Source: Ignavibacteria bacterium
GTDB lineage: Bacteria > Bacteroidota > Ignavibacteria > Ch128b
Reading direction: 5' to 3'
Length of the DNA: 64,000 bases
Assembly: GCA_026415235.1 (NCBI GenBank)
Contig: JAOAHM010000070.1
Coordinates: 826-64,825 of the forward strand
In this document: positions 4,420 to 34,387 of the stretch, piece after piece
How positions within the stretch are numbered: position 1 is the first letter of the stretch
Layout: each line of letters starts with the position of its first letter
Translations under genes and position numbers: made by a program
Notes under the pieces: generated by a model
Told to the model about the DNA's origin: nothing
What the model saw: only the letters and a program-made list of their open reading frames with translations
Databases searched by the model: none

Positions 4420-4420
4420 T

Positions 4421-7134: not shown

Positions 7135-7145
7135 TCCGATAAGAT

Positions 7146-8179: not shown

Positions 8180-9631
8180 TTGAAATCTGACCTTCGACAG
8201 CTTGGAAAAGAAACAGCAATTTATGGCATTTCAACTATCCTGAGTAGGTTCTTGAACTTTCTCTTAGTTCCATTTTACACAAATGTATTTACTCAAGCTG
8301 AATATGGAATTATTACGAATGTCTATGCATATATCGCATTTTTCTACATCATTTATTTGTACGGAATGGAATCGGCTTATTTCAAATTTGCTTCATCAAA
8401 AGAGTTAGGTAATGAGACTGAAACATTTAGCACAGCGTTTAATTCTGTATTTATCACATCACTAATTTTTTCGAGCATAATTTCTTTACTCAAAAATCCA
8501 ATTTCATCATTGTTCAGTCTTACTGAAGAGCATGAAATTATTGTTAATCTTGTTGCAGGTATACTATTCTTTGATGCAATATCAAATATAATTTTTGCGA
8601 GGCTAAGATTTCACAACAAAGCTATGAAGTTCGCTACTTTCAAGACGATAAACATAGTATTCACTGTTTTGTTGAACATTGTGTTAATCCTAAAATTAAA
8701 TTTTAGAATGGAAGGAGTTTTTATATCAAATATTGTTGCTTCATTTTTAACATTTATTTTAATTATACCTGACTTGATAAAATCTTATAAGTTGAAAATT
8801 GATAGAAGAATTTTAATAGGATTACTAAAGTTCGGATTGCCTTTTATACCTTCTGGTTTTGCAGCCATGGTAACAAATGTAATTGATAGACCCATTTTGT
8901 TAGCTTTAACTGATGCAAGTACTGTTGGAATTTATCAAGCTAACTACAAACTTGGTATATTCATGATGTTATATGTATCGATGTTTCAGTATGCCTGGCA
9001 ACCATTCTATTTAAAGAAAGCAAAAGAACAAAATGCTAAAGAATTATTTGCAAGGGTCTTTACATATTTTACAATTTTTGGTTTAACAATTTTCGTGTTT
9101 TTAACTTTATTTATTGAAGATATAATTAGGATTAGAGTATTTGGATATTATTTAATTGGAAAAAATTTCTGGAGTGGAGTTTATATCGTACCAATTGTTC
9201 TTTTAGGTTATTTGTTTAATGGATTTTATATAAATTTTGTCGCTGGATTACAGATTGAAAAGAAAACACAATACTTACCATTTGTAACTGGACTTGGTGC
9301 AATTGTGAATTTAGTTGCAAATTTTTTGTTAATACCTTTTCTTGGAATGCTTGGAGCTGCTTATGCAACTTTAGTTGCTTATTTATCAATGGCAGTTTAT
9401 CAATATAAACTCTCACAAAAGTTTTATGAAATTAAGTACGAATGGAGAAAAGTTTTACAGACAAGCGGAATTTCAATTTCAATTTTATTGACTTATTACA
9501 TTTTGAAAACTTTATTAATTGATTATTTAATTTATGTGAAGATTTTACTTTTTGTGATTTTTCTAATTCTTTTAAAGCTCTCGGGTTTAATTGAATTTCG
9601 TGGTTTATTTGATTTAAAAGTGAAAGAATAA
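8180..9631 (+). CDS. Polysaccharide biosynthesis protein / Wzx-like flippase (MOP superfamily)
   Basis: 483 aa and about 12-14 hydrophobic segments throughout. TTG start lies 9 nt after AAGGGAG. Confidence 0.8.
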   Translation: MKSDLRQLGKETAIYGISTILSRFLNFLLVPFYTNVFTQAEYGIITNVYAYIAFFYIIYLYGMESAYFKFASSKELGNETETFSTAFNSVFITSLIFSSIISLLKNPISSLFSLTEEHEIIVNLVAGILFFDAISNIIFARLRFHNKAMKFATFKTINIVFTVLLNIVLILKLNFRMEGVFISNIVASFLTFILIIPDLIKSYKLKIDRRILIGLLKFGLPFIPSGFAAMVTNVIDRPILLALTDASTVGIYQANYKLGIFMMLYVSMFQYAWQPFYLKKAKEQNAKELFARVFTYFTIFGLTIFVFLTLFIEDIIRIRVFGYYLIGKNFWSGVYIVPIVLLGYLFNGFYINFVAGLQIEKKTQYLPFVTGLGAIVNLVANFLLIPFLGMLGAAYATLVAYLSMAVYQYKLSQKFYEIKYEWRKVLQTSGISISILLTYYILKTLLIDYLIYVKILLFVIFLILLKLSGLIEFRGLFDLKVKE

Positions 9632-16800: not shown

Positions 16801-17921
16801 TAAACACACCACAAAGTGTAACCTTCTCAACTACTTCAGGATGGAATTTGCTCTCAGTTCCAGTAAAGCTAACGAATATGAGTAAAGGTAACTTATTCCC
16901 GAACTCAGTATCCAATGCATTCAATTATAGTGATGATTTGGGTTATATTAAGCATGATACTCTAAGAGTTGGTTCTGGATACTGGTTGAAATTCAATCAA
17001 CAACAACAACATACCTTCCAAGGACCAGTAGATTATGTGCTGAATATTCCAGTTAAGAGAGGTTGGAACTTGATAGGTGCTGCTTATAAGTCAGTACCAG
17101 TTGCAAGTGTATCTACAACTCCAGCTGGTATTATTCAATCTCCATTCTTTGAATATTCAGGCAATTACTCTCAAGCTACTAATTTAGTACAAGGTAAAGG
17201 ATACTGGGTCAAAGTTAGTCAAAATGGTACACTAACTTTGAGAACGACTTATCCAAAAGAATTACCGAAGAATATTTATGTTGAAACCATAGACGAAAAA
17301 TGGCCATCAATTTTGATTACTGATGCAGATGGACAGCAAATGAGATTATACTTAACTACTGATATGACTAATTATACTTATGAGTTACCTCCTGTTCCTC
17401 CAAATGGTGCATTTGATGTCCGTTTCAATACTGATAAATATGTTGAAGATGCGTCAGTTGGTAATTATGTGATTTCTCTAAATTCAGTAAAATATCCAAT
17501 TCAAATTAAATTAGAGAATTTTGAAGAAGGTGCAACTTACAAATTAACAGATGGATTTGATGGAAGAATTTATGAAGATATTATAAGAAATGGTGAAGTT
17601 AAAGAAATCGCTAATGCTCAATTAACTCAAATTCAAATTGCAAAAGTTGAAATACCTAAACAATTTGAATTAAGTCAGAACTATCCGAATCCATTTAATC
17701 CATCTACAATAATCAAGTTTGGATTACCGGAGAATTCGAGAGTTAAGTTGGAAATTTATAATGTGTTAGGTGAGAGAGTTGCAACTTTGATTAATAGTGA
17801 TTTGAAAGCAGGTTATTATGTTGTCAATTTCGATGCCTCCAATTTAACTTCTGGAATTTATTTCTACAGGATTGAGACATCGAATTGGAATGATGTAAAG
17901 AAGATGATATTAATTAAGTAA
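10875..17921 (+). CDS. Giant T9SS cargo protein P1: BNR/Asp-box six-bladed propeller, three Ig-like modules, three ~414-aa tandem units, shared C-terminal cassette, Por CTD
   Basis: AGGAGG at 10868-10873. ATG at 10878 is the likely start (the ORF track uses TTG at 10875). Signal peptide VVIFLFLTSFLYSQ. Six Asp-boxes: TTNGGQTW, STNNGLTW, SRSTDGGLTF, ARSTDGGLTW, RSTNFGQTW, SRSLDGGVTW. C-terminus: [14 protein letters not shown]...GIYFYRI...KKMILIK. Confidence 0.9.
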   Translation: MMRVKLYFLSVVIFLFLTSFLYSQDEERWSKPKLRLEPVQGANQEEIKIDLNVLQQELQKIHPIRTITKDKTYTVYPNIRVWPNAGMTQSEVHIAHNPNNPNILLGGSNAANNSSTVTYVNQGVYVTTNGGQTWFGTDSLPGIPSGFYRSDPVVAFDHLGNMYFNTLEYSSTAGDLVTLKSTNNGLTWPIKVAVPNPGIDEDKNWIAIDVNPSSPYRGYIYTAYTEFQTTDPNYRRLEFSRSTDGGLTFSAPINMSGTAGYLHQGVNLAVGTNGDVVAAFTHYPTSTLTTSHVAFARSTDGGLTWTQQLVVQNINDIRGNLTKGGNTIRVNSFPYIAVDHSNGPRRGWIYITYAARPATGQPPDVYLVRSTNFGQTWSTPIKVNSEPANRDQWFPAIAVDPADGSVNIVYYDSRNYPNNDSTEVYLSRSLDGGVTWEDIKVSDRAFLPRAIAGLATGYMGDYIGITARNGVVWPFWNDNRLGYHQAYTAKVFFIQINHTKLPNTENLNGPYTVRAKITGSVGIQEAKVFWRRGTTGAFDSLLMTRVAADSFVANIPGNGLPAIYQYYIYARDSVGSFATLPGGAPQDIFQFEAAADNQPPVITHTVLGNQYRELWPPQVTATVTDNIGVDSVWVVFKVNTPGTLRQFRLNPQGNNQYAGSFNISSSQLNVGDTIYYRIIAKDLATNPNFGYHPSSTGFNSFRIIPDTEFPVINHTALRDQPFIRWPAVIRTNVTDNIGVDSVWVEWYKNTPANPRRFNLVNLGNNNWEAPFNSDTSQVAIGDSIFYRVVARDISLSQNITYLPTSGYYKFRIIQTRGLVLVIDDDVSELERISPEKGQFKADLTAPLGASANLFKATLDSLGYLADLVTFANFDTSQVYNYDIVILSAGAKTSSIFNDQGKRDAIRRFAALDGKKTWVEGGEVGYFFRSTGTNDQLFRQQVLFTDTWVSDATTATLVHKLPTHPINTTPNAIPNNVAFTGTGIGVRDAMRVLSGARVYPVSAWSSHPDSGGVIVRDKTPNPTSADNIFFTFNIAAITDQSIARRLIENTAEYLMAREQAPLGRISGTVTLQGATNHGGVTVVLTGTANKTTVTAANGSYSFDSLYNGPYRVTVNAPANWFPYTQFKDTSITSANHVSGINFTFVPLVKGTISGQVLLQGQTNHSGILVQVINQPGKEALTNASGNYQITDVNPGQVIVRFSKQGYGSQTRDTVLANGGSLVLNTTLTPSLGNVLIIDDDVAEKDRINPEKPGEVDLTTPLGASATLFKSVLDSLGYNTTLVSFASLDTSTLNNYELVILSTGSKSTNIFNDAGKRAAIRRYATTVGKTLVEGGEVGYFFRSTSTTADSMFRKEVLHTGAWVSDATTSTLRKRIADHPIWNVPNLLPDNIAFTGTSIYTRDAMRVDPAPKRVYHAGTYSAFPDSGSIVVHDKNANPASADNIFFTFNIAQITDQSLARRLIENTVKYLFNVETAPLGRISGTVTLQGAPNSGGVEVRLSGTVSKVTYTAPNGAYSFDSLYAGPYRITAIAPTGWFPYQQVVDTTVSAGQQISNINFTFVPLVTGTISGQVQLQGQTNHSGVEVRVLNQPDKVTTTNAAGNYTLTGVNPGNLTVQFKKQGFKTTRRDVVLPNGGSVTVNVTMPVTLGNILVIDDDVSYEGRVSNEKNGTFDLTSPLGASANLFKATLDSLGYNADLVSFNNLDTTILMDYDLLLLTAGPKTGVQFNNQALRDAIRKFANTPGKKTWVEGGEVGYAYRSTGTNDQLFRQQVLFTNTWISDVTSGLLNKRIASHPINSNPNLIPDNLAFAGTGIGERDAMTVMPGARVYPVSAWSTLPDSGGIIVNDKNANPLSADNVFFTFNIAGMTDQSSAKKLIENTAKYLFTYEPPPTGAISGTVSLSGSNTNAGVTVKLYSLPGSSLLNTVVTDSTGRYIFGGLYSGLYRVEATPPTGFYPAVATRDTSVGTDTVKNFNFTFINVNTPQSVTFSTTSGWNLLSVPVKLTNMSKGNLFPNSVSNAFNYSDDLGYIKHDTLRVGSGYWLKFNQQQQHTFQGPVDYVLNIPVKRGWNLIGAAYKSVPVASVSTTPAGIIQSPFFEYSGNYSQATNLVQGKGYWVKVSQNGTLTLRTTYPKELPKNIYVETIDEKWPSILITDADGQQMRLYLTTDMTNYTYELPPVPPNGAFDVRFNTDKYVEDASVGNYVISLNSVKYPIQIKLENFEEGATYKLTDGFDGRIYEDIIRNGEVKEIANAQLTQIQIAKVEIPKQFELSQNYPNPFNPSTIIKFGLPENSRVKLEIYNVLGERVATLINSDLKAGYYVVNFDASNLTSGIYFYRIETSNWNDVKKMILIK
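12660..13319 (+). repeat. Two tandem 110-aa (330-nt) Ig-like units inside P1
   Basis: Unit 1 is 12660-12989 (DNQPPVITHT...VTDNIGVDSVWVVF...YYRIIAKD). Unit 2 is 12990-13319 (DTEFPVINHT...VTDNIGVDSVWVEW...FYRVVARD). Confidence 0.85.
13320..16800 (+). repeat. Three tandem in-frame units inside P1: 13320-14561, 14562-15803 (414 aa each) and a truncated third at 15804-~16800
   Basis: Each unit opens with an (L/V)(L/V)(V/I)IDDDV-type motif and has an alpha/beta-looking ~270-aa part (PLGASANLFKATLDSLGY, WVEGGEVGYFFRS, ADNIFFTFNIA..TDQS.A..LIENTA.YL). CarboxypepD_reg-like beta-sandwiches follow (GRISGTVTLQG...GVTV...NG.Y.FD.LY.GPYR.T). Units 1 and 2 have two sandwiches and unit 3 has one. Confidence 0.9.
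16839..17918 (+). other. Shared C-terminal cassette, copy in P1
   Basis: Twin GWNL...GYW[LV]K module at 16839-17240. ELPPVPPNGAFDVRF at 17382-17426. T9SS CTD at 17664-17918. Confidence 0.85.
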
Positions 17922-17955
17922 TAGCTATATGACTTATACTAAAAATTTTAATTCA

Positions 17956-17996
17956 GTTAATTCCCCGTGCATTCATGTTGAGTGCACGGGATTAAC
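17956..17996 (+). other. Strong intergenic stem-loop between P1 and P2, with no U-tract
   Basis: GTTAAT(TC)CCCGTGCA pairs with TGCACGGGATTAAC: 14 bp with a 2-nt bulge. It can extend by 3 more pairs (TTC/GAG) to leave a 5-nt loop. The flanking sequence is A-rich (ACAAAAAG), not T-rich. Confidence 0.6.
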
Positions 17997-18021
17997 ACAA
18001 AAAGTAAATAAAGGAGAGTCT

Positions 18022-21000
18022 ATGAAAAAATTACTTCTATCTCTTGTTCTTCTTGTAACATTCGCAACAATGGCATATAGCCAGTATGCCGAAAGTTTCT
18101 TTACTTCTAATCCTAACTACAAACTTGAATTAGAAAGGTCGGGTAGTAATTTTATTTCAATACCTGCTTCTATTAATTACAAACCACTTGGTGTGATTAA
18201 TTGGTCAGAAGGATTTGAAGGAACAACATTTCCACCGACTGGTTGGTCGGTTCATCAATTAGATGGTGGTACTCAGACTTGGGTTAGATACACAACAACT
18301 CCAATATTTGGAACAGCTTCGGCAGCGGTTAGATGGGAGTCAACTACCTTAGCCAATGATGATTGGTTAGTTACTCCACAATTTCAGGTAAATGCAGGTG
18401 CATTCTTGAATTTTTATGCAAAGAGACAATCAACTTCTTTCTTTGACTCAGTTGAAATTTATTATTCAACTACAGGTGGCGTTCCACCTTCGGGATATAC
18501 AAGGATTACGACTGTAATGCCTCAGAGCACAACAACTGGTGAATTATTCCAAGTATCGTTAGCTAGTTTAGCTGGTCAGAATGTTAGAATTGCTTTTAGA
18601 TACAAAGAATTAGATCAATTCAGGATTTATCTTGATAGTATTTATGTTGAAACACCTGTAACTCTTGATGCGGGTATTTCTGCCATAAATAAACCAGGCT
18701 CATTAGAAACAACATTAGGTACTGCACCACAAATCGTAGTGAGGAATTTTGGTGCAAATCCAACGGGTCCATTTACTGCTACATTAACAATACAACCTGG
18801 TGGATATTCTCAAACAGTTAATGTTAGTTCGTTAAATAGTGGTGCAAGTGTTACATTAGATTTACCACAATGGACACCAACCTCAAAAGGAACATACACG
18901 GTTACTGCTTATACTTCTTTAAGTGGTGACTTAAATCCACAAAATGATACTCTAAGAAAAACTGTTGTGGTATTGGAAGAATTACAGCGTGATTTCACTC
19001 ATAATGTTTCAAATATCTTCCCAGCAGTTTCGCTCTACGGTGTTGAATTCGATGGTAATTACTACTACATGACGAAATGGAATGAAAACAAAATTTATAG
19101 ATTGAATAAGGCTGCAACAGTATTAGACTCATTTACAATTTCTGGGCTTTCTTCAACTGTAGGAATTCGTGATTTAGCTTGGGATGGTCAATATTTATAT
19201 GGTAGTAATGCTTCTACTACAGTATATAGAATAGATATTTCAACATTTACGGCCACTCCAGCATTTACTTCACCTGTTGTTGTTAGAGGTATAGCTTATA
19301 ACAAAGCAAGTGATGCCTTCTGGGTATCTAACTGGAATACAGATTTAAGATTGGTTAGCAGAACAGGTACGAATTTACAAACAATTACTGCTGCAACACA
19401 TGGTCTTACTGGTATGTCTGGTTTAGCATATGATACTTTAACTACTGGTGGACCATATATTTGGGTTTTGGATGGTGGCTCTGATGTAGCTCCAAAAATT
19501 TTATATAAAATTAGAGCATCAAATGGTGCAAAGGTTGATAGCTTTTTGATTACTCATCACTTGCCAACAGGTGCAATTGGTGGTGGTGTATTTTGTTCAA
19601 ATCAAGTAATTCCTGGAGTAATAACGCTTGGTGTTCTCAACCAAGGTACACCACACTTAATTAATGGATATAGAATTGGTGGTGCACAAGTACAAGGTAC
19701 TATTTCTATATTGTATCCGATGGGTGGTGAAAATATTTTGGTGAATTCAAAACAAATAGTTGTGTGGAAATCTGCAAATGTACAAGGTAATGTTAATATT
19801 TTAGTTTCAACTGATAACGGTGCAACTTGGCAACCATTAGCTACAAATATTCCAAATACTGGTTTCTATTCAGTTACAGCTGCACCAGCTCCAGTTAACA
19901 ATGTAAAAATTCGAGTTGTGTCTGTAACTACTCCAACTGTATTTGGTGAAAGTCAAGCATTCAATATTGTATCTGGTACTACACCAGAAGTTGATTTCCC
20001 ATTAGTCGTTTCAGATGGAACTTATGCAGAAGGTTTGAGAACTGGATTACATCCAACTGCAACAGATGGAATTGATACACATTTAGGTGAATTTGAATTA
20101 CCACCTTCACCACCAACTAGTGTTTTTGATGCTCGATTGATTGGTTCAGATATAGGAATACCTCAACTTGGTAACGGTGTTTTAAGAGACTATCGTCAAG
20201 GTTCATTGACCTTTAATGGTCAGAAAGTACACGAACTTAAATTCCAAATGAGTTCGTTGGCTAGACTAACTTCATCGAATATTACAATTTATTGGGATTT
20301 ACCAAGTAATGTAACTGGAAGATTGCAAGATATAGTTACTGGTAATATCATTGATGTTCCAATGTCTGGATTAGGTTCTTATACTGTTTCAAATCCATCA
20401 TTATACAACAAATTAAAAGTTACTTATACATATACCTACACTCCACCTGTAACTGGTACAATCAAAGTTCTTTATCCTAATGGTGGAGAGGTTATTAGGA
20501 AAGGATCTGGTATTGTTGTAGCGTGGAATTCGAATGTTCCAGGTTTGGTTCGACTCTTAGGGTCGACTGATGGTGGAAATACTTGGGTATTACTAAGGGA
20601 TAGCTTGCCTAATACAGGTGTATTTGGAGATGTCATTAGTACAACAACACCAGAAAGCAACCAATGGAGAGTTAGAATCCAAAGTATAGGTAATCCAACA
20701 ATCTTTGATGATAGCGATGGTAATTTCACAGTTCAAGGTAACAAGTTAGTTTATATTGATAATCCATTTGTGATTTCTGATGGACAATCAAGTGTAGGTT
20801 TGTATTATGGTATCGATCCAAATGCAACAGACGGTATTGATTTAGCACTCGGTGAAGCTGAATTACCTCCACCTCCTCCAACAGGTGTATTTGATGGTCG
20901 TTTCATTGGAGCTGATATCGGTGTCCCACAATTAGGTCAAGGTACTTTAAAAGATTACAGACAAGGTGGAGCAACATTTAGTGGTAATAAAATTCATGAA

Positions 21001-24000
21001 ATTCAATATCAATTAGGAAGTGGCGATTCAATAAGATTATTCTGGTACCTACCTCAAAATGTCACGGGACAATTGCAAGATTTATTCGGTGGGGTATTAG
21101 TAAATATCCCAATGAGTGGTGCTGGTAGGTATACTGTTACAAATCCAGCATTAAACAAATTGAAAATCACATTGACTTACGCTGCTCAACCTGCAAGTGT
21201 TCAAGTTGTACAACCTAATGGTGGGGAAGTTTTAGTAGTAGGTCAGACTTATCAGATAATTTGGAATGCATCAGGAATTAGTCAAGTTAAACTTGAATAT
21301 ACAACTAACAATGGTACAACTTGGATTAATATTGCGACAGTTCCAGCCTTAACTACAAATAAAGTTAAATTGGATGGAAAACATCCAAAAGATCCTAACG
21401 CATATATTGAAGGTACATTAGGAACCTATAACTGGACTGTTCCGAATACGCCGTCTAATCAATGTAGAGTCAGAGTTTCCGATGCATCTAATCCATCAAT
21501 ATTTGATGTGAGCGATAATGTATTCACTATCACTGCACCAATGTCTGAAGGGTGGACCGTTCAGACTAGCGGTGTGACAGCAGCTCTTTATTCAGTAAGT
21601 GTAGTGAATGATAATGTTGCTTGGGCATGTGGTGCTGGTGGTGTTGTTATTCGAACAACAAACGGAGGTCAAACTTGGCAAACAGTAACTTCGCCAAGAG
21701 CAGTTGATGCTTATGTTATGTGGGCAATTGATGCTAACAAAGCATTTGTTGGTACAAGTGGAACTTCTGATGCAATTATCCACATGACTACAAATGGTGG
21801 TCAAACCTGGACAAATGTTTATACTATTACTGGTGGTTTCTTAAATGTAATTAGATTTATTGATGCTAATAATGGTTGGGCACAAAGTGACCCTGTTGGT
21901 GGCAACTGGGTACTTTTAAGAACAACCAATGGTGGATTAACTTGGACATCAATGGCAACAGTTCCACAAGCTGGTTCTGAATATGGATGGAATAATTCAG
22001 GTTGGGATAAATCAGGTAGAATGTGGTTCGGTACTAATAATTCGAGAATCTACTATTCAACTAACAACGGTTCAACATGGTCATTTGCAACTACAACTTC
22101 TGTAAACTCTTATGCAGTTGCATTTGATAATAATCTTATAGGTTTATCAGGATTTGGTGCCGGTGTATTAAATAAATCTACAAATGGTGGTGTAAATTGG
22201 AGTGCAATTACTTCTCCAACTACATCAGATGTTACAGGTATTGCTAATGTTTTGAATAATGAGTTCTTCGTTTCAGCTGGTGGTACAGTATGGAAAACAA
22301 CAGATGGTGGTTCAAACTGGACAATTAGCTACGGTGGTACAACCACAGTTTATCATTTATTCATGGTTCCAACACTAACTGAGAATCAACCAACAGTTGG
22401 TTGGGCAGTTGGTGCAAATGGATTAGTTTTAAAATACAGAAGACAAATACAACAACCTTCAGTTCAAGTCGTTCAACCAAACGGTGGTGAGAATTGGGCT
22501 GTTGGTTCAACTCAAAATATTATTTGGAATGCTCAGTTAGTTTCTAATGTAAAATTAGAATATACAACTAATAATGGTCAAAGCTGGATACACATTGCTA
22601 CTGTTCCTGCAGTCAAAGTGCAAAAGGTCAAGTTAGATGGTTATTCTCCAAAAGATCCTAATTCTGTTATTGAGGGAGAATTAGGAGTTTATGCTTGGGT
22701 AATTCCAAATACTCCTTCAACACAATGCAAAGTTCGCGTTTCAGATGCATCAAATCCTGCAGTCTTTGATGAAAGTGATAATACATTCACAATCTCAGCA
22801 GGTGTAATTGGTGAAAGTTGGACAGTTCAAAACAGTGGTACTACAGCTACATTATATAGTGTTTCTACTGTTGATGCTAATGTTGCATGGGCTGCTGGAA
22901 CTGGTGGTGTTGTTATTAGAACAACAAATGGTGGAACTACATGGCAAACAGTCACTTCACCAAGAGCAGTTGATGCCCATGTCATTTGTGGTATTAATGC
23001 TAACAAGGCATTAGTTGCTACAAATGGTACTTCTGATGCAGTAATTCATTTAACTACAAATGGTGGTCAAACCTGGCAGAGTGTATTTACTCAAGCTGGT
23101 GGTTTCATTAATGTGATTATTATGTTCGATGAAATGAATGGATTTGCTCAAGGTGATCCTGTTGGAAATACCTGGACATTGTTAAAGACAACAGATGGCG
23201 GTTTAACTTGGACATCAGCTTCTACTTTAGCTCCTGTGGGTGGTGAATATGGTTGGAATAACGGTGGATGGAATGTAGGTGACAATATTTGGTTTGGTAC
23301 GAATAATTCAAGAGTATATAAATCTACAAATCGTGGCGCATCTTGGACTTCAGCACCAACAACAGTAGTTAATAGCTATTCAGTTGTATTTGCTGATGCT
23401 CAGAAAGGTCTTGTTGGTTCTGCAACTGGTACTGCTAACAAATCAACTGATGGTGGAAATACATGGACTGCAATAACAACTCCTGCAACTGGTAATATTC
23501 TCGGTATGACTACTATTGGTGGTGAAGAATTCTGGTTCACTTCTGGAACGGGAGTGTTCTATTCAAGTAACCACGGTACAAATTGGTCTACAAGCCATAC
23601 TGCAACACAATCATTGTATCATATACATTTCAAAGGATTAGGTGGACCTAACGCAGTTGGATATGCAGTTGGTGCAAGCGGTTATGTTGCAAAATACTTC
23701 AGAGGACCTGTTACTCCTCAAATTACAGTTGTCTCACCAAATGGTGGTGAAAACTGGACTGTTGGTTCTACACGGCAAATCGTTTGGAATGCACAAGGTG
23801 TTCAAAATGTTCGATTAGAATATACAACCAATAATGGAACAAGTTGGATTTTCATCGCAACAGTACCAGCAGTAACTCAAAAAGTAAATAATAAAGATGC
23901 AGAACAACTTGGCAAGCCAACAGAGGGTGTATTAGGTACTTATAATTGGGTTGTACCAAATACTCCTTCTAATCAATGCCGAGTTAGAGTATCTGATGCT

Positions 24001-26169
24001 ACAAACGCAAGTATTTTCGATGTTAGCGATAATGTTTTCACAATTAGTACTGGTGCTCCTGGTCCACAATTACAATTTAATTATAATATTTCATCCTTAG
24101 CACCAGGCGCTTTTTCACTTTATGGCTCTGAATTTGATGGACAATATTTTTATGTAACTCGATGGAGTGAACCTAAGATTTTCAGAATTAATAAAGCTGG
24201 TACTCAGATTGACTCGTTTACAATTACTGGTTTACCAAGTGGTGGTATTAGAGACTTAGCATTTGATGGTCAGTTCTTATATGGAAGTAATAATTCAACA
24301 ACAGTGTATAGAATTGACAGAACAACATTCGCAGCTACAACTGCATTTACATCACCAATTGCAGTAAGAGGAATTTCCTATAATGCTGCTATGAATGCAT
24401 TCTGGGTTGCTAACTGGTCAACCGATATCGTGTTGGTAAGTCGAACTGGTGCAACATTATACACAATTCCAGCTGCACAACATGGTTTCACTGGTATGTC
24501 TGGCAATGCATACGATACATTATCAGCTGGAAGTCCTTATCTATGGATATTTAGTGGTGGAACTGCCACCGATCCAAAGATACTTTATAAGGTAAATCCT
24601 GTTAATGGTCAAAGATTGGATAGTATCGTTGTTACTGATATCTTACCAACTGGTGCAATTGGTGGTGGTCTATGGGTTACCAAAGATTTCGAACCAAATA
24701 CAGTTACATTAGGTGGTTCATCACAAGCTGTTCCTCATAGACTATTTGGTTATAAGATACATGAATTCGGACCAATTCCAGGAACTATTACATTACTAAC
24801 TCCAAACGGTGGAGAGGTTTACTATCGTGGTCAATGGCAATTAATTACTTGGAAATCTATTGATTTCGATACAAGAGTGAAGATTAAATTCTCAAGTGAC
24901 GGTGGAAATACATTCATTGATATAGCAACAAATGTTTTGAATAATGGTCTCTATGCGTTCCAGATTCCAACAAATGCGGTGGTTGGAAACAATTACTTGA
25001 TTAGAATTGAATCACAAAATGACCCGACTAAATTTGATGTTTCTGATGCACCATTCTCTGTTCTTGCTGCTCCTTATACATTACCTGTGGTTGACCTTCC
25101 AATGGTCATTTCAGATAATCAGAATAGCAGATTGTTGAGATTTGGTTTAGATCCAGCTGCAACTGATGGTATTGATACTCAATTTGGTGAAGAAGAATTA
25201 CCACCAGTACCACCAGCTGGAGTACTTGATGCTCGATTTATTGGTGATGATATTGGTCTTAATCTTGGACAAGGATTAGCATTAGATTATCGCTTTGGAA
25301 GAAACAATGCCCCAAGCGTTAAAACACATGAAATTAGATTCCAGAGAGGTCATGGCAATACAATAGTAATCAATCTTTATTTACCAACTGATGTAACAGC
25401 AAGATTCCAGTCATTGACTCCTGGTTTCGATACCACAGTTAGTGGTGTTGCACGATTTGTTGTTAGTGATACTTTATTGAATAAATTGAGAATTACATTG
25501 AATTACTTCCCGAATGCTGTTCTGGGTCAATTCAACCTTGTTGGTCCATTTAATAACCAATTGGTGGCTGCAAGACAAAATGACTCAACGCTTGTTACAT
25601 TCAGATGGAATAAATCGAGAAATGCTGTTCAATACAGATTGAGAATGGGTGTACCATCTATTCCACCATTTATGTTGGATGTACCATCTAACGTAAACGG
25701 TACTGATACAGTCTTAACAATAAGACAAATGGACTTATTCAATATCTTTACTAAGCCAAATCATCCTGTTGACACAACAATTAATGGTCAATGGGCTGTA
25801 TGGGCTTATGATGTGAATGGTGACTCATTGAGAAGTCAAAGTGTCTATACAATTAGATTGAGATTAATCAAGACAACAGGTGTTGAAGATAATAATATTA
25901 CACCAGATAGATTTGTATTGCATCAAAACTATCCGAACCCATTCAATCCATCAACATTAATTAAATTCGGATTACCTGAAGATGCATATGTAACATTAGA
26001 AGTCTATAATGTGGTCGGTGAAAAAGTTGCGACACTTGTTGCAGAAAATCTGAGAAAAGGAAATCATGAAGTTGTCTTTGATGCAAGTGGATTACAATCT
26101 GGTGTTTATTTCTATAAGATTAACGCCGGTAAGTTTAGCGCTGTAAAGAAGATGTTGTTGATTAAATAA
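18022..26169 (+). CDS. Giant T9SS cargo protein P2 (2715 aa): adhesin-like multi-domain protein with a choice-of-anchor-J/MAM-like domain, two beta-propeller-like X regions, six Ig-like domains, two Asp-box propellers, three ELPP modules and a Por CTD
   Basis: The ORF track starts at 17929. However, AAAGGAGAG precedes the ATG at 18022, which opens a signal peptide (MKKLLLSLVLLVTFATMAYSQ). The upstream 31 codons cover the intergenic hairpin. C-terminus: [14 protein letters not shown]...GVYFYKI...KKMLLIK. Confidence 0.9.
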   Translation: MKKLLLSLVLLVTFATMAYSQYAESFFTSNPNYKLELERSGSNFISIPASINYKPLGVINWSEGFEGTTFPPTGWSVHQLDGGTQTWVRYTTTPIFGTASAAVRWESTTLANDDWLVTPQFQVNAGAFLNFYAKRQSTSFFDSVEIYYSTTGGVPPSGYTRITTVMPQSTTTGELFQVSLASLAGQNVRIAFRYKELDQFRIYLDSIYVETPVTLDAGISAINKPGSLETTLGTAPQIVVRNFGANPTGPFTATLTIQPGGYSQTVNVSSLNSGASVTLDLPQWTPTSKGTYTVTAYTSLSGDLNPQNDTLRKTVVVLEELQRDFTHNVSNIFPAVSLYGVEFDGNYYYMTKWNENKIYRLNKAATVLDSFTISGLSSTVGIRDLAWDGQYLYGSNASTTVYRIDISTFTATPAFTSPVVVRGIAYNKASDAFWVSNWNTDLRLVSRTGTNLQTITAATHGLTGMSGLAYDTLTTGGPYIWVLDGGSDVAPKILYKIRASNGAKVDSFLITHHLPTGAIGGGVFCSNQVIPGVITLGVLNQGTPHLINGYRIGGAQVQGTISILYPMGGENILVNSKQIVVWKSANVQGNVNILVSTDNGATWQPLATNIPNTGFYSVTAAPAPVNNVKIRVVSVTTPTVFGESQAFNIVSGTTPEVDFPLVVSDGTYAEGLRTGLHPTATDGIDTHLGEFELPPSPPTSVFDARLIGSDIGIPQLGNGVLRDYRQGSLTFNGQKVHELKFQMSSLARLTSSNITIYWDLPSNVTGRLQDIVTGNIIDVPMSGLGSYTVSNPSLYNKLKVTYTYTYTPPVTGTIKVLYPNGGEVIRKGSGIVVAWNSNVPGLVRLLGSTDGGNTWVLLRDSLPNTGVFGDVISTTTPESNQWRVRIQSIGNPTIFDDSDGNFTVQGNKLVYIDNPFVISDGQSSVGLYYGIDPNATDGIDLALGEAELPPPPPTGVFDGRFIGADIGVPQLGQGTLKDYRQGGATFSGNKIHEIQYQLGSGDSIRLFWYLPQNVTGQLQDLFGGVLVNIPMSGAGRYTVTNPALNKLKITLTYAAQPASVQVVQPNGGEVLVVGQTYQIIWNASGISQVKLEYTTNNGTTWINIATVPALTTNKVKLDGKHPKDPNAYIEGTLGTYNWTVPNTPSNQCRVRVSDASNPSIFDVSDNVFTITAPMSEGWTVQTSGVTAALYSVSVVNDNVAWACGAGGVVIRTTNGGQTWQTVTSPRAVDAYVMWAIDANKAFVGTSGTSDAIIHMTTNGGQTWTNVYTITGGFLNVIRFIDANNGWAQSDPVGGNWVLLRTTNGGLTWTSMATVPQAGSEYGWNNSGWDKSGRMWFGTNNSRIYYSTNNGSTWSFATTTSVNSYAVAFDNNLIGLSGFGAGVLNKSTNGGVNWSAITSPTTSDVTGIANVLNNEFFVSAGGTVWKTTDGGSNWTISYGGTTTVYHLFMVPTLTENQPTVGWAVGANGLVLKYRRQIQQPSVQVVQPNGGENWAVGSTQNIIWNAQLVSNVKLEYTTNNGQSWIHIATVPAVKVQKVKLDGYSPKDPNSVIEGELGVYAWVIPNTPSTQCKVRVSDASNPAVFDESDNTFTISAGVIGESWTVQNSGTTATLYSVSTVDANVAWAAGTGGVVIRTTNGGTTWQTVTSPRAVDAHVICGINANKALVATNGTSDAVIHLTTNGGQTWQSVFTQAGGFINVIIMFDEMNGFAQGDPVGNTWTLLKTTDGGLTWTSASTLAPVGGEYGWNNGGWNVGDNIWFGTNNSRVYKSTNRGASWTSAPTTVVNSYSVVFADAQKGLVGSATGTANKSTDGGNTWTAITTPATGNILGMTTIGGEEFWFTSGTGVFYSSNHGTNWSTSHTATQSLYHIHFKGLGGPNAVGYAVGASGYVAKYFRGPVTPQITVVSPNGGENWTVGSTRQIVWNAQGVQNVRLEYTTNNGTSWIFIATVPAVTQKVNNKDAEQLGKPTEGVLGTYNWVVPNTPSNQCRVRVSDATNASIFDVSDNVFTISTGAPGPQLQFNYNISSLAPGAFSLYGSEFDGQYFYVTRWSEPKIFRINKAGTQIDSFTITGLPSGGIRDLAFDGQFLYGSNNSTTVYRIDRTTFAATTAFTSPIAVRGISYNAAMNAFWVANWSTDIVLVSRTGATLYTIPAAQHGFTGMSGNAYDTLSAGSPYLWIFSGGTATDPKILYKVNPVNGQRLDSIVVTDILPTGAIGGGLWVTKDFEPNTVTLGGSSQAVPHRLFGYKIHEFGPIPGTITLLTPNGGEVYYRGQWQLITWKSIDFDTRVKIKFSSDGGNTFIDIATNVLNNGLYAFQIPTNAVVGNNYLIRIESQNDPTKFDVSDAPFSVLAAPYTLPVVDLPMVISDNQNSRLLRFGLDPAATDGIDTQFGEEELPPVPPAGVLDARFIGDDIGLNLGQGLALDYRFGRNNAPSVKTHEIRFQRGHGNTIVINLYLPTDVTARFQSLTPGFDTTVSGVARFVVSDTLLNKLRITLNYFPNAVLGQFNLVGPFNNQLVAARQNDSTLVTFRWNKSRNAVQYRLRMGVPSIPPFMLDVPSNVNGTDTVLTIRQMDLFNIFTKPNHPVDTTINGQWAVWAYDVNGDSLRSQSVYTIRLRLIKTTGVEDNNITPDRFVLHQNYPNPFNPSTLIKFGLPEDAYVTLEVYNVVGEKVATLVAENLRKGNHEVVFDASGLQSGVYFYKINAGKFSAVKKMLLIK
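18988..19683 (+). repeat. X1: ~232-aa propeller-like region of P2, duplicated as X2
   Basis: LYGVEFDGNYYYMTKWNENKIYRLNKA...IRDLAWDGQYLYGSN.STTVYRID...VRGIAYN...AFWVSNW aligns along its whole length with 24070-24775. Confidence 0.85.
19981..20450 (+). repeat. ELPP module 1 of P2
   Basis: VVSDG...GLHPTATDGIDTHLGEFELPPSPPTSVFDARLIGSDIGIPQLG...DYRQG...HE.KFQ...KLKVTYT. Confidence 0.8.
20746..21180 (+). repeat. ELPP module 2 of P2
   Basis: FVISDGQ...GIDPNATDGIDLALGEAELPPPPPTGVFDGRFIGADIGVPQLG...DYRQGG...HEIQYQ...KLKITLTY. Confidence 0.8.
21199..24060 (+). repeat. Tandem units in P2: 21199-22461 (421 aa), 22462-23721 (420 aa), partial third 23722-~24060
   Basis: Each full unit has an Ig-like domain (VQVVQPNGGE...W...KLEYTTNNG.(T/S)WI.IATVPA...CRVRVSDASNP) plus a propeller rich in Asp-box-like TTNGG.TW motifs (Ycf48/BNR-like). 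The third unit keeps only the Ig-like part. Confidence 0.9.
24070..24775 (+). repeat. X2: second copy of the propeller-like region of P2
   Basis: LYGSEFDGQYFYVTRWSEPKIFRINKA...IRDLAFDGQFLYGSNNSTTVYRID...VRGISYN...AFWVANW. Colinear with X1. Confidence 0.85.
25069..25510 (+). repeat. ELPP module 3 of P2
   Basis: MVISDNQ...GLDPAATDGIDTQFGEEELPPVPPAGVLDARFIGDDIGLNLG...DYRFG...HEIRFQ...KLRITLNY. Confidence 0.8.
25912..26166 (+). other. Por/T9SS type-A C-terminal sorting domain of P2
   Basis: [42 protein letters not shown]...GVYFYKINAGKFSAVKKMLLIK. Confidence 0.9.
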
Positions 26170-26257: not shown

Positions 26258-29107
26258 ATGGTAGTTTTCATGAAAAAATTTATCGTTTATTTTTTAATTG
26301 TCTTATCAAGCATTGCTTGGTCACAAGGTAAAGTATCTGAAAATCTTCATAACTATTTGAGTTCTATTAGAACTTCTGAACCGATAAAGATTTGGGTATA
26401 CTTTATTGATAAAGGCTCTGACTTGAATAAATATTTTATTAATCCAGAACTTGTAGTTAGTAAGCAATCCTTAGAAAGAAGAAAAAAGGTTTTACCTGAT
26501 GATAAACTTATAGATTATGATGATTTACCTGTTTCAAGCCAATATCTTAATCAATTAAAAGATTATGTTGTTGAATTCAAACATTGTTCAAAATGGTTTA
26601 ATGCAGTAAGTGCGTACGTTCTTCCTGAGCAAATTAATCAAATAGCATCTTTATCCTTTGTAAAAAAAGTTGATTTAGTCGAAAAGTTTAAGAAGAGATT
26701 AGAACCTATTGAAGAAAACAATTCAGAGTTTGATCAACAAAATAAATTAAATGTTACAGTTGAAGGTACAACTTTACTCAACTATGGTGCCTCGTTAACG
26801 CAAAATCAACAAATTAATGTTGTTGCGGTTCATAATACTGGAAATTATGGTCAGGGAGTTAGGATTTGCGTAATGGATGCTGGCTTTAACAGATTAACAC
26901 ATGAAGTTTTTCAAAACATGAATATAATTGCAACATGGGATTTCGTTAATAATAGACCTTATGTTGGTGATGGTCAAGGTGGTGCTGGTTCAGGAACTCA
27001 TGGAACTCAAACACTTTCAACAATTGGTGGTTTTAAGGAAGGCCAATTGATTGGACCAGCATTTGGTGCAACCTATATTCTTGCTAAAACAGAAAATACA
27101 GAAAGTGAAACACCAATTGAGATGGATAATTGGATACGAGCTCTTGAATGGGCAGATAGCATTGGAGTTGATGTTACAAGCACATCGCTTGGATATTTAG
27201 AATTCGATCCACCTTATCCAAGTTATAATTGGACACACATGGATGGAAACACAGTTCCTATCACGATTGCAGCTGACTTAGCAGTGAAAAGAGGAATTGT
27301 AGTAGTTAACTCAGCTGGAAATGAAGGTTATAATGCGACAAGAAATACTTTAGTCGCACCAGCTGATGGAGATAGTGTTATTGCAGTAGGTGCTGTTACT
27401 TCTTCAGGTGCAAGAGCATCATTTAGTTCGGTTGGTAATACAGTTGATGGAAGAATTAAACCTGATGTAATGGCAATGGGAAGTGGAGTTAGAGTTGCGA
27501 GTGCATATTCTGATAATGGATATACAAGTGCAAGTGGTACATCATTTTCATGCCCTCTTGCTGCTGGCGTTGCTGCTCTTATTTTATCAGAAAATCCTTC
27601 CTTAACCCCGATGCAGGTTCGTGATGCAATGAGAAATACAGCAAGTAATGCAAATTCACCAAATCGTGAAATGGGTTGGGGAATACTCAATGCTCTGCAA
27701 GCAGTTAATTACTATAATATAAATTTTTCTCACACTCCACCATTAGATACAACGAATGTGAATGGTCCATACAAAATAGCCGCAAAAATTACATCTCGAT
27801 TGGGAATTAATTCATCATCTGTAAAATTATTTTGGGGAAGAGGTACAATTACTGATTCAATTTTAATGATGGAAGCACCTGGTGATACATTCTATGCTTT
27901 TATTCCAGGAAATGGACAATCAGCAATTTATAAATATTATATTGAGGCAAGAACTGCAGATGGAAAAATTGTTAAAAGACATCCCAAAAGAGCACCACAA
28001 GAATTATTAGAATTCAAAGTTGGAAATTTTGCTTCTGTGAGTGTTAACTCTGGATGGAATTTAATGTCAGTTCCTGTCCAAACTCAAAACTTAACTATAA
28101 ATCAAGTTTTTCAAAATGTAACTTCATCTGCATATTATTTTGATGGAAGATATATCACTCGTGATACGATTGTACCTGGTTATGGATTTTGGTTGAAATT
28201 TAGTTCAAATAATAATTTTTCAATTCCAGGTAATCCTCTAACAGCAATCTCATTACCTGTTAAAGCTGGTTGGAATTTAATTGGCTCATTGAATACGACA
28301 ATTCCAGTTTATACTGTATCAAGTGTACCTCCCAATATTATCTCAACACCTTTTTATGGTTATAATGGTGGATATTTTAACTCGCCACAAATTGAAAGAG
28401 GAAAAGGATATTGGGTAAAAGTTCTTCAAGATGGTTATTTAATTTTGAACTCGTCAAATAAAAACAATTTGAATATTAACTTTGTTGATATTGAAACAAA
28501 TAAATTAGTCATCTCTGATAATTCAGGCAATAGAGGTGAATTAATTTTTTCATCAGTTGACTATGATCCAGAGTTACCACCAATTCCACCTTCAAATGCT
28601 TTTGATGTTCGTTTTCAAGATTCAAAATTAACTTCAACATCTGACGAAAATTTAATTTTACTACAAGGCATTAATTCACCATTAAATTTATTCTTGTCTC
28701 CGAAGTCAGATTTGTCTTTAGAGTTTTACCAACCACTTACTAATGAATTTATCACAAGAATTAAACCAGGTGAATCAAAAATTCTCGAATTAAATAATCT
28801 TAATTCGTTGAAAGTAAAGGTAGTTCGTGAGAAACTTGTGTATCAATTGTTCCAAAATTATCCTAATCCTTTTAATTCAACTACAAAAATAGATTTTGTA
28901 TTACCAGAAAATTCATTTGTAAAACTCATAGTTTATGATGTACTTGGTAATGAGGTATTAAGATTAATTAATCAAAATCTTGAAAGAGGTCATTACTCAA
29001 TTAACTTAGATATTCTTAAATTGAAAGAGCTTAGTTCTGGAATTTATTTTTATAAACTTCATGCAGGTAATTTTGTTCAAACAAAAAAAATGATTTATCT
29101 CAAATAA
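26258..29107 (+). CDS. T9SS-secreted subtilisin-family (S8) serine endopeptidase P3 with the shared C-terminal cassette
   Basis: Signal peptide starting at the ATG at 26270 (MKKFIVYFLIVLSSIAWSQ). I9-like propeptide. Catalytic residues: D (CVMDAGF), H (GTHGTQT), N (NSAGNEG), S (SGTSFSCPLAAG). C-terminus: NYPNPFNSTT...GIYFYKL...KKMIYLK. Confidence 0.92.
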   Translation: MVVFMKKFIVYFLIVLSSIAWSQGKVSENLHNYLSSIRTSEPIKIWVYFIDKGSDLNKYFINPELVVSKQSLERRKKVLPDDKLIDYDDLPVSSQYLNQLKDYVVEFKHCSKWFNAVSAYVLPEQINQIASLSFVKKVDLVEKFKKRLEPIEENNSEFDQQNKLNVTVEGTTLLNYGASLTQNQQINVVAVHNTGNYGQGVRICVMDAGFNRLTHEVFQNMNIIATWDFVNNRPYVGDGQGGAGSGTHGTQTLSTIGGFKEGQLIGPAFGATYILAKTENTESETPIEMDNWIRALEWADSIGVDVTSTSLGYLEFDPPYPSYNWTHMDGNTVPITIAADLAVKRGIVVVNSAGNEGYNATRNTLVAPADGDSVIAVGAVTSSGARASFSSVGNTVDGRIKPDVMAMGSGVRVASAYSDNGYTSASGTSFSCPLAAGVAALILSENPSLTPMQVRDAMRNTASNANSPNREMGWGILNALQAVNYYNINFSHTPPLDTTNVNGPYKIAAKITSRLGINSSSVKLFWGRGTITDSILMMEAPGDTFYAFIPGNGQSAIYKYYIEARTADGKIVKRHPKRAPQELLEFKVGNFASVSVNSGWNLMSVPVQTQNLTINQVFQNVTSSAYYFDGRYITRDTIVPGYGFWLKFSSNNNFSIPGNPLTAISLPVKAGWNLIGSLNTTIPVYTVSSVPPNIISTPFYGYNGGYFNSPQIERGKGYWVKVLQDGYLILNSSNKNNLNINFVDIETNKLVISDNSGNRGELIFSSVDYDPELPPIPPSNAFDVRFQDSKLTSTSDENLILLQGINSPLNLFLSPKSDLSLEFYQPLTNEFITRIKPGESKILELNNLNSLKVKVVREKLVYQLFQNYPNPFNSTTKIDFVLPENSFVKLIVYDVLGNEVLRLINQNLERGHYSINLDILKLKELSSGIYFYKLHAGNFVQTKKMIYLK
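28052..29104 (+). other. Shared C-terminal cassette, copy in P3
   Basis: Twin module at 28052-28447. ELPPIPPSNAFDVRF at 28571-28615. CTD at 28841-29104. Confidence 0.85.
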
Positions 29108-34100: not shown

Positions 34101-34387
34101 TTACTCGTTTAGAAAAACTTGTTTATACATTTGATTTAAGCCAAAATTATCCAAATCCATTCAATCCAAGTACCTTCATTAATTTTTCACTTCAATCCAG
34201 AACTAAAGTGAAGTTAATTGTTTATGATGTACTTGGAAATGAAGTTGCAACTTTAATTGATAATGAATTAGAAGAAGGGAAACATACCGTTAAATTTGAT
34301 GGAAGTCAGTTAGCATCTGGTGTTTACTTTTATAAACTAATAACTGACAAATTTACAGATATCAAGAAGATGGTTTTAATGAAATAA
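31172..34387 (+). CDS. T9SS-secreted M14-family zinc carboxypeptidase P5 with a MAM-like domain and the shared C-terminal cassette
   Basis: Signal peptide. M14 motifs: LHHAREPQG (HxxE), [22 protein letters not shown]/Ig-like region follows. The jelly-roll-like domain reads [11 protein letters not shown]...[16 protein letters not shown]...DGWYIDDV. Por CTD at the end. Confidence 0.9.
33335..34384 (+). other. Shared C-terminal cassette, copy in P5
   Basis: Twin module at 33335-33730. [15 protein letters not shown] at 33854-33898. CTD at 34124-34384. Confidence 0.85.

What the first reader, a model, noticed from the sequence alone, without database searches (positions are those of the whole stretch)
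16839..17240. Twin-repeat GWNL...GYW[LV]K module, a probable undescribed domain
The module is 132-134 aa and occurs five times: 16839-17240, 28052-28447, 30074-30469, 33335-33730 and 35761-36156. Each copy is an internal duplication. Half a reads GWNL(L/I/M)S(V/I)P..(about 40 aa)..G.G(Y/F)WLKF. Half b reads (K/R).GWNLIG..(about 45 aa)..(G/A)KGYW(V/I)K...G.L.L.

The invariant aromatic and glycine positions (GW, GYW) are typical of a compact beta-sandwich or lectin-like fold. The length is nearly fixed, which argues for a folded unit, not a linker. Any function is inference only. A glycan or cell-surface binding role seems plausible.
Basis: seen in the sequence. Interest (0 to 1): 0.7.

Follow-up and report, generated by a model that had tools for sequence, protein, structure and literature searches.

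The report
Undescribed twin-repeat beta domain in secreted proteins
Five neighbouring secreted enzymes of an Ignavibacteria-like bacterium share a strongly conserved, confidently folded ~140-residue all-beta domain made of two similar halves; it belongs to a very large family (over 18,000 sequence clusters) with no model in Pfam or NCBIfam and no solved-structure relative, and it is most likely a binding module, but that function is untested.

Summary
Exactly five in-frame copies lie at the stated coordinates (HMM E 1e-64 to 1e-69, nothing else in six frames). Each is an internal duplication (hhalign half a vs half b: 96.8%, E 2e-10).

The hosts are five Sec- and T9SS-tailed proteins with unrelated heads: S8, M28 and M14 peptidases, a BNR protein and a giant CarboxypepD_reg array.

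No Pfam, NCBIfam or PDB-sequence match was found, even with a 59-sequence profile. AlphaFold2 gives a compact all-beta domain (pLDDT 93.9, pTM 0.86). Foldseek finds no PDB neighbour (best E 0.14, TM ≤0.33), while the CTD of the same cassette is recovered as a control.

The family has 18,130 representative clusters. It is mostly in Ignavibacteria-type MAGs, with a divergent branch in Cloacimonadota. There is nearly always one copy per protein, fused to over 70 head families. The usual layout is head–MOD–(MID)–CTD, but some proteins carry it C-terminally without a CTD, or N-terminally.

Between orthologues it is 78–81% identical, close to the catalytic heads and well above the flanking regions.

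Best reading: an autonomous, promiscuous binding or retention module. The ligand is unknown.

Two additions: the domain starts about 9 aa earlier than stated, and it is usually followed by a conserved E-x-PP-x-PP motif.

The parts
16812..17243 (+). Module copy 1 (core GWNL..L.L = 16839-17240; structured domain probably starts 27 nt upstream) in the 2348-aa BNR/CarboxypepD_reg/SdrD_B array protein
   Evidence: boundary by alignment to the M28 copy
28025..28450 (+). Module copy 2 (core 28052-28447) in the 949-aa Peptidase_S8 protein
30047..30472 (+). Module copy 3 (core 30074-30469) in the 670-aa Peptidase_M28 protein; this is the copy that was modelled
   Evidence: cassette model residues 17-158 at pLDDT about 90
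33308..33733 (+). Module copy 4 (core 33335-33730) in the 1071-aa Peptidase_M14 + InhA-like MAM protein
35734..36159 (+). Module copy 5 (core 35761-36156) in the 807-aa BNR_2 protein
17265..17651 (+). MID region of copy-1 protein (unannotated, beta-rich); E-L-PP-V-PP...FDVRF motif at 17382-17426
28448..28831 (+). MID region of the S8 protein; PP motif at 28571-28615
30485..30871 (+). MID region of the M28 protein; PP motif at 30602-30646. The model shows about 8 beta strands at pLDDT 50-85, after a disordered linker
33731..34117 (+). MID region of the M14 protein; PP motif at 33854-33898
36172..36564 (+). MID region of the BNR protein; PP motif at 36292-36336
17655..17918 (+). T9SS type A C-terminal sorting domain (Por_Secre_tail) of the copy-1 protein
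28835..29104 (+). T9SS CTD of the S8 protein
30872..31135 (+). T9SS CTD of the M28 protein; Foldseek recovers solved T9SS-substrate CTDs at probability 1.0
34124..34384 (+). T9SS CTD of the M14 protein
36574..36873 (+). T9SS CTD of the BNR protein
17929..26169 (+). Internal contrast: a 2746-aa T9SS cargo (BNR/sortilin-like + CTD) inside the same gene run, with neither module nor MID

Best explanation
The module is an autonomously folding, non-catalytic, all-beta domain of about 140 aa. It arose by duplication of a ~66-70 aa unit: strand, then GWNL(I/L)(S/G), about 25-30 residues, (Y/F)x(Y/F), GY, G-x-G-Y-W-(L/V)-K, strand. It is a mobile accessory domain of secreted proteins, mainly in Ignavibacteria, present almost always once per protein and usually just N-terminal of the T9SS sorting tail. 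I propose that it is a ligand-binding (retention or targeting) module. After Sec export and T9SS translocation, it would hold very different heads (endo-, amino- and carboxypeptidases, beta-propellers, adhesin-like arrays) on one common ligand. That ligand is most plausibly a polymer of the cell's own envelope or of the colonised substrate. The two pseudo-symmetric halves would contribute equivalent conserved aromatic and polar positions (W-N and Y-W-x-K in each half). Shown here: existence, duplication, confident fold, independence from neighbouring domains, absence from domain and structure libraries, family size, taxonomic range, promiscuous architecture, strong purifying selection. Inferred: that it binds something, and what it binds.
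For: Real and duplicated. Folded and independent: pLDDT 93.9, pTM 0.86. In the cassette model it stays at about 90 and is separated from MID by a linker with pLDDT below 50. Undescribed: no Pfam hit for the 5 copies at E<=10, and no family recurring on the module in 59 diverse members. No NCBIfam hit. No PDB sequence hit with the 5- or 59-sequence profile. No Foldseek PDB hit (best E 0.14, TM<=0.33), whereas the CTD is recovered at probability 1.0. Large family: 18,130 representatives at E<=1e-3 and 3,724 at E<=1e-30. Promiscuous: 70 Pfam families among 76 non-cassette parts, including S8, M28, M14, sortilin/BNR, FG-GAP, Kelch, SBBP, Fib_succ_major and Laminin_G_3. One module per protein in all 105 ORFs. 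Independent of position and of CTD: 67 MOD-MID-CTD, 19 MOD-CTD and 16 with MOD only; CTD-less proteins have signal peptides and a stop codon directly after the module; some carry the module directly after the signal peptide. An M28 orthologue keeps MOD but lacks MID and CTD (L056). A Cloacimonadota protein carries five divergent copies with PKD, Laminin_G_3 and dockerin. Constraint: orthologue identity is 78-81% for MOD, 84-90% for heads, 45-57% for MID and 56-79% for CTD. Paralogue identity is 50% for MOD, 25% for MID and 46% for CTD, with third codon positions near saturation. W, N, G, Y and K are invariant at equivalent positions in both halves.
Against: There is no direct evidence of binding. 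No structural similarity to any lectin, CBM or adhesin was found. I could not inspect the model coordinates, so I do not know whether the conserved aromatic residues are exposed (a binding face) or buried (the core). The heads are mostly peptidases and propellers rather than glycoside hydrolases, so a classical substrate-targeting CBM role is not obviously indicated. High conservation could also reflect folding or secretion constraints.
Confidence: 0.5

Rival explanations
1. Passive structural spacer or pedestal. The module only projects the catalytic head away from the outer membrane after the CTD is removed and the protein is anchored.
For: It usually sits between head and CTD (86 of 105 ORFs) and is flanked by flexible linkers. 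No binding-domain similarity was found.
Against: Spacers usually evolve fast and occur in variable numbers. This module is nearly as conserved as the catalytic heads and far more than the adjacent MID. It has invariant polar residues in both halves. It is single-copy. It also occurs N-terminally, or as the last domain of CTD-less proteins where nothing needs spacing.
Confidence: 0.17
2. T9SS-specific helper domain, recognised by the translocon, shuttle or attachment machinery (PorV/PorU/PorZ-like), or needed for folding and export of Ignavibacteria cargo.
For: Strong co-occurrence and adjacency with Por_Secre_tail. A conserved E-x-PP-x-PP element lies between module and CTD in 74 of 86 CTD-bearing members. 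Five of the six T9SS cargo genes in the window carry the module.
Against: 16 of 105 ORFs have the module but neither CTD nor MID hit, including complete ORFs with signal peptides. 20 ORFs in the same loci match the CTD model only; several of these are cut by contig ends, so a module upstream of the cut cannot be excluded for them. The complete 2746-aa window protein has a CTD and no module. The Cloacimonadota relative uses a dockerin and no CTD. T9SS cargo of Bacteroidia, which is well studied, needs no such domain (established knowledge).
Confidence: 0.1
3. Protein-protein docking module. The aromatic-rich module recognises the polyproline motif E-(L/M)-PP-x-PP that follows it in most family members, in cis (autoinhibition or rigidification) or in trans. 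It would assemble different enzymes into surface complexes and recruit CTD-less module proteins onto anchored ones.
For: The PP motif follows the module in 57/67 MOD-MID-CTD and 17/19 MOD-CTD proteins, within a conserved context (RIRIVPxxELPPxPP or KLYxT...ELPPxPPxxxFDVRF). Invariant W and Y residues are typical of PPII-binding domains (established knowledge of SH3, WW and GYF). CTD-less and CTD-bearing module proteins are encoded side by side (L056). Complementary peptidases are clustered.
Against: This is purely circumstantial. No fold similarity to SH3, WW, GYF or EVH1 was found. In the cassette model the motif lies in the MID part, followed by a strand (FDVRF) after a low-confidence stretch, which suggests it belongs to MID. 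No interface could be inspected. The motif may simply be a rigid linker.
Confidence: 0.13
4. Not a distinct domain: a chance or low-complexity similarity, or a divergent copy of the neighbouring MID or CTD beta-sandwiches.
For: None beyond all three being beta-rich.
Against: HMM E-values of 1e-64 or better. 18,130 relatives. hhalign of MOD vs MID and MOD vs CTD gives probability <=0.4%. The model is confident and compact.
Confidence: 0.01

Closest known systems
Carbohydrate-binding modules and other accessory beta domains appended to T9SS cargo (e.g. CBM + Por-tail enzymes of Melioribacter roseus, PMC3534657)
   Same: Non-catalytic, all-beta, about 130-140 aa. Placed between the catalytic head and Por_Secre_tail in secreted multidomain proteins of the same bacterial group. 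Rich in conserved aromatic residues. Promiscuous across heads.
   Different: No sequence or fold match to any CBM or lectin. The heads are mostly peptidases and beta-propellers, not glycoside hydrolases. Binding was not tested.
Cell-surface retention repeats of Gram-positive bacteria (Listeria GW modules, choline-binding CW_binding_1 repeats, SLH domains)
   Same: Aromatic/glycine-rich repeated units (a GW dipeptide, a G-Y-W-x-K-like motif). Appended, usually C-terminally, to very diverse secreted enzymes. Their role is non-covalent retention on an envelope polymer, which is the mechanism I propose by analogy.
   Different: No homology was detected (Pfam scan at E<=10 found none of these families). 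The repeat length differs (about 66-70 aa x2, against about 20 aa choline-binding repeats or about 80 aa SH3-like GW modules). The host is a diderm FCB bacterium. The resemblance is recalled from knowledge of those families and is a lead, not a test.
Ig-like (IgSF) domain preceding the CTD in Porphyromonas gingivalis gingipain RgpB and other T9SS cargo
   Same: A beta domain immediately upstream of a type A CTD in T9SS substrates.
   Different: In the window that position is occupied by MID, not by the module. The module is not Ig-like by Foldseek and also occurs without a CTD.
BFVD model A0A8D9C8P8, 'Putative hemin binding protein [uncultured marine phage]', 587 aa
   Same: The only significant structural neighbour found: Foldseek E 6.5e-5, probability 1.0, TM 0.71 normalised to the query, 18% identity. 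It is probably a member of the same family.
   Different: It is itself a predicted and uncharacterised structure. Its name is an automatic annotation with no experimental basis that I could verify. It gives no functional information.

Membership tests
Any Pfam-A family (2025 copy, 24,736 models) | Score above the family's gathering threshold over the module | tested here: not met
   The five modules at E<=10 gave no family, apart from one 12.9-bit noise hit to DUF6263. Of 59 diverse members scanned at E<=1, the only recurring families (Ig_Rha78A_N, fn3, in 3-4 members) are not found in the five window copies, which were scanned as the bare module; this points to the flanking sequence of those hits. 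In multi-module proteins P0121-P0125 nothing covers the module.
Any NCBIfam family (release 20.0) | Hit over the module region | tested here: not met
   In the C-terminal 450-470 aa of the five proteins, only Por_Secre_tail/T9SS-tail models hit, all in the CTD region.
Any protein of solved structure (PDB) | Sequence-profile match, or Foldseek match at E<=1e-3 with TM>=0.5 | tested here: not met
T9SS type A C-terminal sorting domain (Por_Secre_tail, PF18962/TIGR04183) | Profile match; C-terminal ~75-90 aa beta-sandwich | tested here: not met
   The module is distinct from the CTD: hhalign MOD vs CTD gives probability 0.2%. The CTD is a separate domain 140 aa downstream. The host proteins, not the module, are T9SS cargo.
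Carbohydrate-binding module / lectin (functional class) | Demonstrated glycan binding, or homology or fold match to a CAZy CBM or lectin family | tested here: not met
   No homology or fold match. Binding itself cannot be tested with these tools, so 'works like a CBM' remains open.
Proline-recognition domains (SH3, WW, GYF, EVH1) | Characteristic fold with an exposed aromatic groove contacting a PPII peptide | tested here: inconclusive
   No Foldseek or Pfam match to these folds.

The most novel reading that the evidence does not exclude
The module is a new fold of polyproline-recognition or docking domain. It binds the conserved E-(L/M)-PP-x-PP motif found just downstream in most family members, so that T9SS-anchored and CTD-less module proteins (endo-, amino- and carboxypeptidases, propellers) assemble into multi-enzyme complexes on the Ignavibacteria cell surface. 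This would be a cohesin-dockerin-like system of the FCB group built from unrelated parts.
Probability: 0.1. Interest if true: 0.8.

Novelty: new variant of a known kind. Interest (0 to 1): 0.5.

Why it matters
If the reading holds, a domain family with more than 18,000 sequence clusters, one of the commonest building blocks of the secreted proteome of Ignavibacteria, has no model in Pfam or NCBIfam and no structural relative in the PDB. Ignavibacteria are abundant in anammox reactors, hot springs, groundwater and sediments.

Defining the family would improve annotation of thousands of 'hypothetical' T9SS cargo proteins. Identifying the ligand would show how these bacteria keep their extracellular peptidases and adhesins at the cell surface or on the substrate.

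The domain is small, confidently predicted and highly conserved, so it is an easy target for expression, crystallography and binding screens. The co-occurring polyproline motif gives a concrete, testable hypothesis for surface-complex assembly.

Tried and rejected
1. Pfam, NCBIfam, PDB-sequence and Foldseek-PDB searches for a known relative were all negative.
2. Foldseek against BFVD gave one significant hit, an uncharacterised predicted protein, which is uninformative.
3. Is the module a divergent MID or CTD? No: hhalign probability <=0.4%.
4. Are there cryptic extra copies in the window, or in the neighbouring 2746-aa T9SS protein? None.
5. Recent gene conversion or repeat homogenisation among the five copies is rejected.
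6. Literature searches for the motif and for Ignavibacteria T9SS cargo found no description.
7. A search with one Cloacimonadota-type unit, meant to map the divergent branch, gave only 9 unnamed hits.
8. An exact look-up of the window's M28 protein, meant to identify the source genome, found no record. The closest genome is an uncultured Ignavibacterium sp. MAG at 78% module identity.
9. The window context holds no T9SS machinery or obvious partner gene.
10. Surface exposure of the conserved residues could not be assessed, because model coordinates and PAE are not returned by the tools.
Full report
OBSERVATION.

They lie in five consecutive or near-consecutive + strand ORFs: 10875-17921 (2348 aa), 26258-29107 (949 aa), 29126-31138 (670 aa), 31172-34387 (1071 aa) and 34453-36876 (807 aa).

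A profile of the five copies, run with filters off on the six-frame translation of the whole window, finds exactly these five (E 7e-69 to 2e-64). Nothing else scores below E 0.5.

The internal duplication is statistically solid. The half-a profile hits every b half at E 1e-8 to 1e-10, and hhalign gives 96.8% probability, E 2e-10.

The copies are 43-60% identical in protein and 54-61% in DNA. Third codon positions are 42-50% identical, and no shared word exceeds 18 nt. They are therefore old paralogues held similar by selection, not by gene conversion.

CONTEXT IN THE WINDOW.

The five hosts have unrelated heads: Peptidase_S8, Peptidase_M28, Peptidase_M14 + InhA-like MAM, BNR_2, and a BNR + CarboxypepD_reg/SdrD_B array. 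All end in Por_Secre_tail, the T9SS type A sorting domain. All begin with a Sec signal peptide.

What they share is larger than the module. It is a ~370 aa cassette:
- the module (MOD);
- a ~130 aa unannotated beta-rich region (MID), whose N-terminal third carries an invariant E-x-PP-x-PP-xxx-FD-x-RF motif;
- the CTD.

A sixth T9SS cargo inside the same gene run (17929-26169, 2746 aa) has the CTD but neither MOD nor MID. The flanking genes are housekeeping: polysaccharide biosynthesis upstream, formyltransferase and polyamine and Met metabolism downstream. The window has 32.7% GC.

IS IT A KNOWN DOMAIN?

All searches were negative:
- Pfam-A gives nothing for the five copies at E<=10.
- No family recurs on the module when 59 diverse members are scanned one by one.
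- Nothing covers the module in multi-module relatives.
- NCBIfam hits only the CTD.
- PDB sequences are not matched with a 5- or a 59-sequence profile.
- MOD is not a diverged MID or CTD (hhalign probability <=0.4%).
- Full-text searches found no description.

STRUCTURE.

AlphaFold2, with only the five window sequences as alignment, gives a compact all-beta model (pLDDT 93.9, pTM 0.86, about 14 strands).

In a model of the whole cassette, the module keeps pLDDT about 90 over residues 17-158. It gains an N-terminal strand (consensus T-x-T-F-x-T, about 9 aa before GWNL). A disordered linker (161-177, pLDDT below 50) separates it from MID (178-291, about 8 strands, pLDDT 50-85), which a second linker separates from the CTD sandwich (305-379).

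Foldseek against the PDB gives no match at E<=1e-3. The best is E 0.14 with TM <=0.33, scattered over cupin and jelly-roll proteins. As a positive control, the cassette model recovers solved T9SS-substrate CTDs (8glk_D, 4g5a_A) at probability 1.0.

FAMILY.

A 59-sequence profile finds 18,130 representative clusters (50% identity level) at E<=1e-3, 8,186 at E<=1e-10 and 3,724 at E<=1e-30. All source names are 'hypothetical protein'.

In one genome per species, 229 relatives were confirmed. The best 80 (77 loci) are almost all labelled Ignavibacteria, Ignavibacteriales, Ignavibacteriae, 'Bacteroidota' or 'uncultured Chlorobiaceae' MAGs, with several copies per genome. The closest is an uncultured Ignavibacterium sp. 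at 78%.

A divergent branch exists in Candidatus Cloacimonadota. MCF7912336.1 (3424 aa) has five twin-repeat units with PKD, Laminin_G_3 and a dockerin, and no CTD.

ARCHITECTURE.

Across 105 module-bearing ORFs in the loci there is always one module per protein:
- 67 are head-MOD-MID-CTD;
- 19 are head-MOD-CTD with a ~35 aa linker;
- 16 have MOD only.

The MOD-only forms are complete. They have signal peptides and either a stop codon directly after the module or the module directly after the signal peptide. One is an M28 orthologue of the window gene that lacks MID and CTD.

A few representatives have two modules. The non-cassette parts hit 70 different Pfam families, led by S8, CarboxypepD_reg, sortilin/BNR, SdrD_B, MAM, fn3, FG-GAP, SBBP, M28, M14, Kelch, Fib_succ_major and Laminin_G_3. 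The S8-M28-M14(-BNR) gene order of the window is conserved in related MAGs (L001-L007).

CONSTRAINT.

Between window and L001 orthologues, identity is 84-90% in the heads, 78-81% in MOD, 45-57% in MID and 56-79% in the CTD. Among the five paralogues it is 50% (MOD), 25% (MID), 46% (CTD) and 15% (upstream).

Over 101 modules the consensus keeps W-N, S-x-P, F-P, Y, G-x-G-Y-W-L-K-F in half a, and G-W-N-x-I-G, P, Y, G-Y, Y-W-V-K, G-x-L-x-L in half b. W, N, G, Y and K occupy equivalent positions in both halves.

INTERPRETATION.

Shown: a real, duplicated, autonomously folded, strongly constrained, promiscuous accessory domain. It has no family model and no solved relative.

Inferred: function.
- single-copy promiscuity across unrelated heads;
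- independence from position and from the CTD;
- conservation close to that of the catalytic domains;
- symmetric invariant aromatic and polar residues.

I put about 0.5 on that, and much less on any particular ligand. The predominance of peptidase and propeller heads over glycoside hydrolases points more to a shared anchor, such as an envelope polymer, than to substrate-specific CBM behaviour. This is argument, not evidence.

A LEAD.

The motif E-(L/M)-PP-x-PP follows the module in 57/67 MOD-MID-CTD and 17/19 MOD-CTD proteins. In the latter it lies within a conserved linker '...NRIRIVPxxELPPxPP...'. It follows the module in only 3/19 of the remaining proteins, whose motif match was not tied to the conserved context.

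It may be just a rigid stalk. Alternatively, an aromatic-rich domain next to a conserved PPII motif invites the hypothesis of cis or trans recognition and assembly of surface complexes. I rate this at about 0.1. It could not be tested because coordinates and PAE are not exposed.

VERDICT.

Three refinements apply: the boundary is 9 aa earlier, the module is part of a larger shuffled cassette, and it is not strictly tied to T9SS.

On novelty: it is a previously undescribed, very large domain family, probably a new fold, that fills a familiar role class, the accessory module of secreted multidomain proteins. I rate it a new variant of a known kind, with interest 0.5.

Noticed in passing
window 17382-17426, 28571-28615, 30602-30646, 33854-33898, 36292-36336; loci L018-L077: A conserved polyproline motif E-(L/M)-PP-x-PP (then xxx-FD-x-RF in the MID class, or preceded by 'RIRIVP' in the MOD-CTD class) follows the module in 74 of 86 CTD-bearing family members, and in only 3 of the 19 others, whose match was not tied to the conserved context. 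Its role is unknown: stalk, processing site or ligand for the module.
   Followed up: partly
window 17265-17651, 28448-28831, 30485-30871, 33731-34117, 36172-36564: The ~130 aa MID region between module and CTD is itself unannotated (no Pfam, NCBIfam or PDB sequence hit). It is predicted beta-rich at moderate confidence and evolves much faster than the module. It is absent in a whole subclass of family members.
   Followed up: partly
window 10875-36876 (N-termini of the six T9SS cargo ORFs): All six have signal peptides followed directly by Gln after the likely cleavage site (LYS|Q, AYS|Q, AWS|Q, LYS|Q, GLA|Q, SLA|Q). This is the 'Bacteroidetes Q-rule' pattern. [quoted passage not shown]
   Followed up: partly
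window 17929-26169: A 2746-aa BNR/sortilin-like T9SS cargo sits in the middle of the module-bearing gene run but has neither module nor MID. It matches the MID profile only at short proline-rich stretches.
   Followed up: yes
P0123 (MCF7912336.1, Candidatus Cloacimonadota, 3424 aa): It has five divergent copies of the twin repeat alternating with PKD domains and another unannotated ~110 aa repeat ('FEPVIYTN..GE..ID..PAE.GD.V.AF..GECRG...'), plus Laminin_G_3 and a C-terminal type I dockerin. The repeat therefore also occurs in a dockerin context outside Ignavibacteria.
   Followed up: partly
window 616-9631: Directly upstream of the cargo cluster lies a surface-polysaccharide biosynthesis set: a DegT/DnrJ/EryC1 aminotransferase, two GT2 genes (one fused to a Bac_transf sugar-transferase domain) and a Polysacc_synt flippase. 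In P. gingivalis, enzymes of these classes make the A-LPS to which T9SS cargo is attached (from my own knowledge). Whether that applies here was not examined.
   Followed up: no
window 37865-38935: A single 356-aa ORF combines an S-adenosylmethionine decarboxylase domain (AdoMet_dc) with spermidine synthase domains, apparently a fused polyamine-synthesis enzyme.
   Followed up: no
loci L038 (labelled Proteobacteria MAG) and L073 (labelled Candidatus Jorgensenbacteria MAG): Typical MOD-(MID)-CTD proteins occur on contigs of MAGs labelled as non-FCB lineages. Given the T9SS tail and about 50% identity to Ignavibacteria copies, mis-binning is the likely cause.
   Followed up: no
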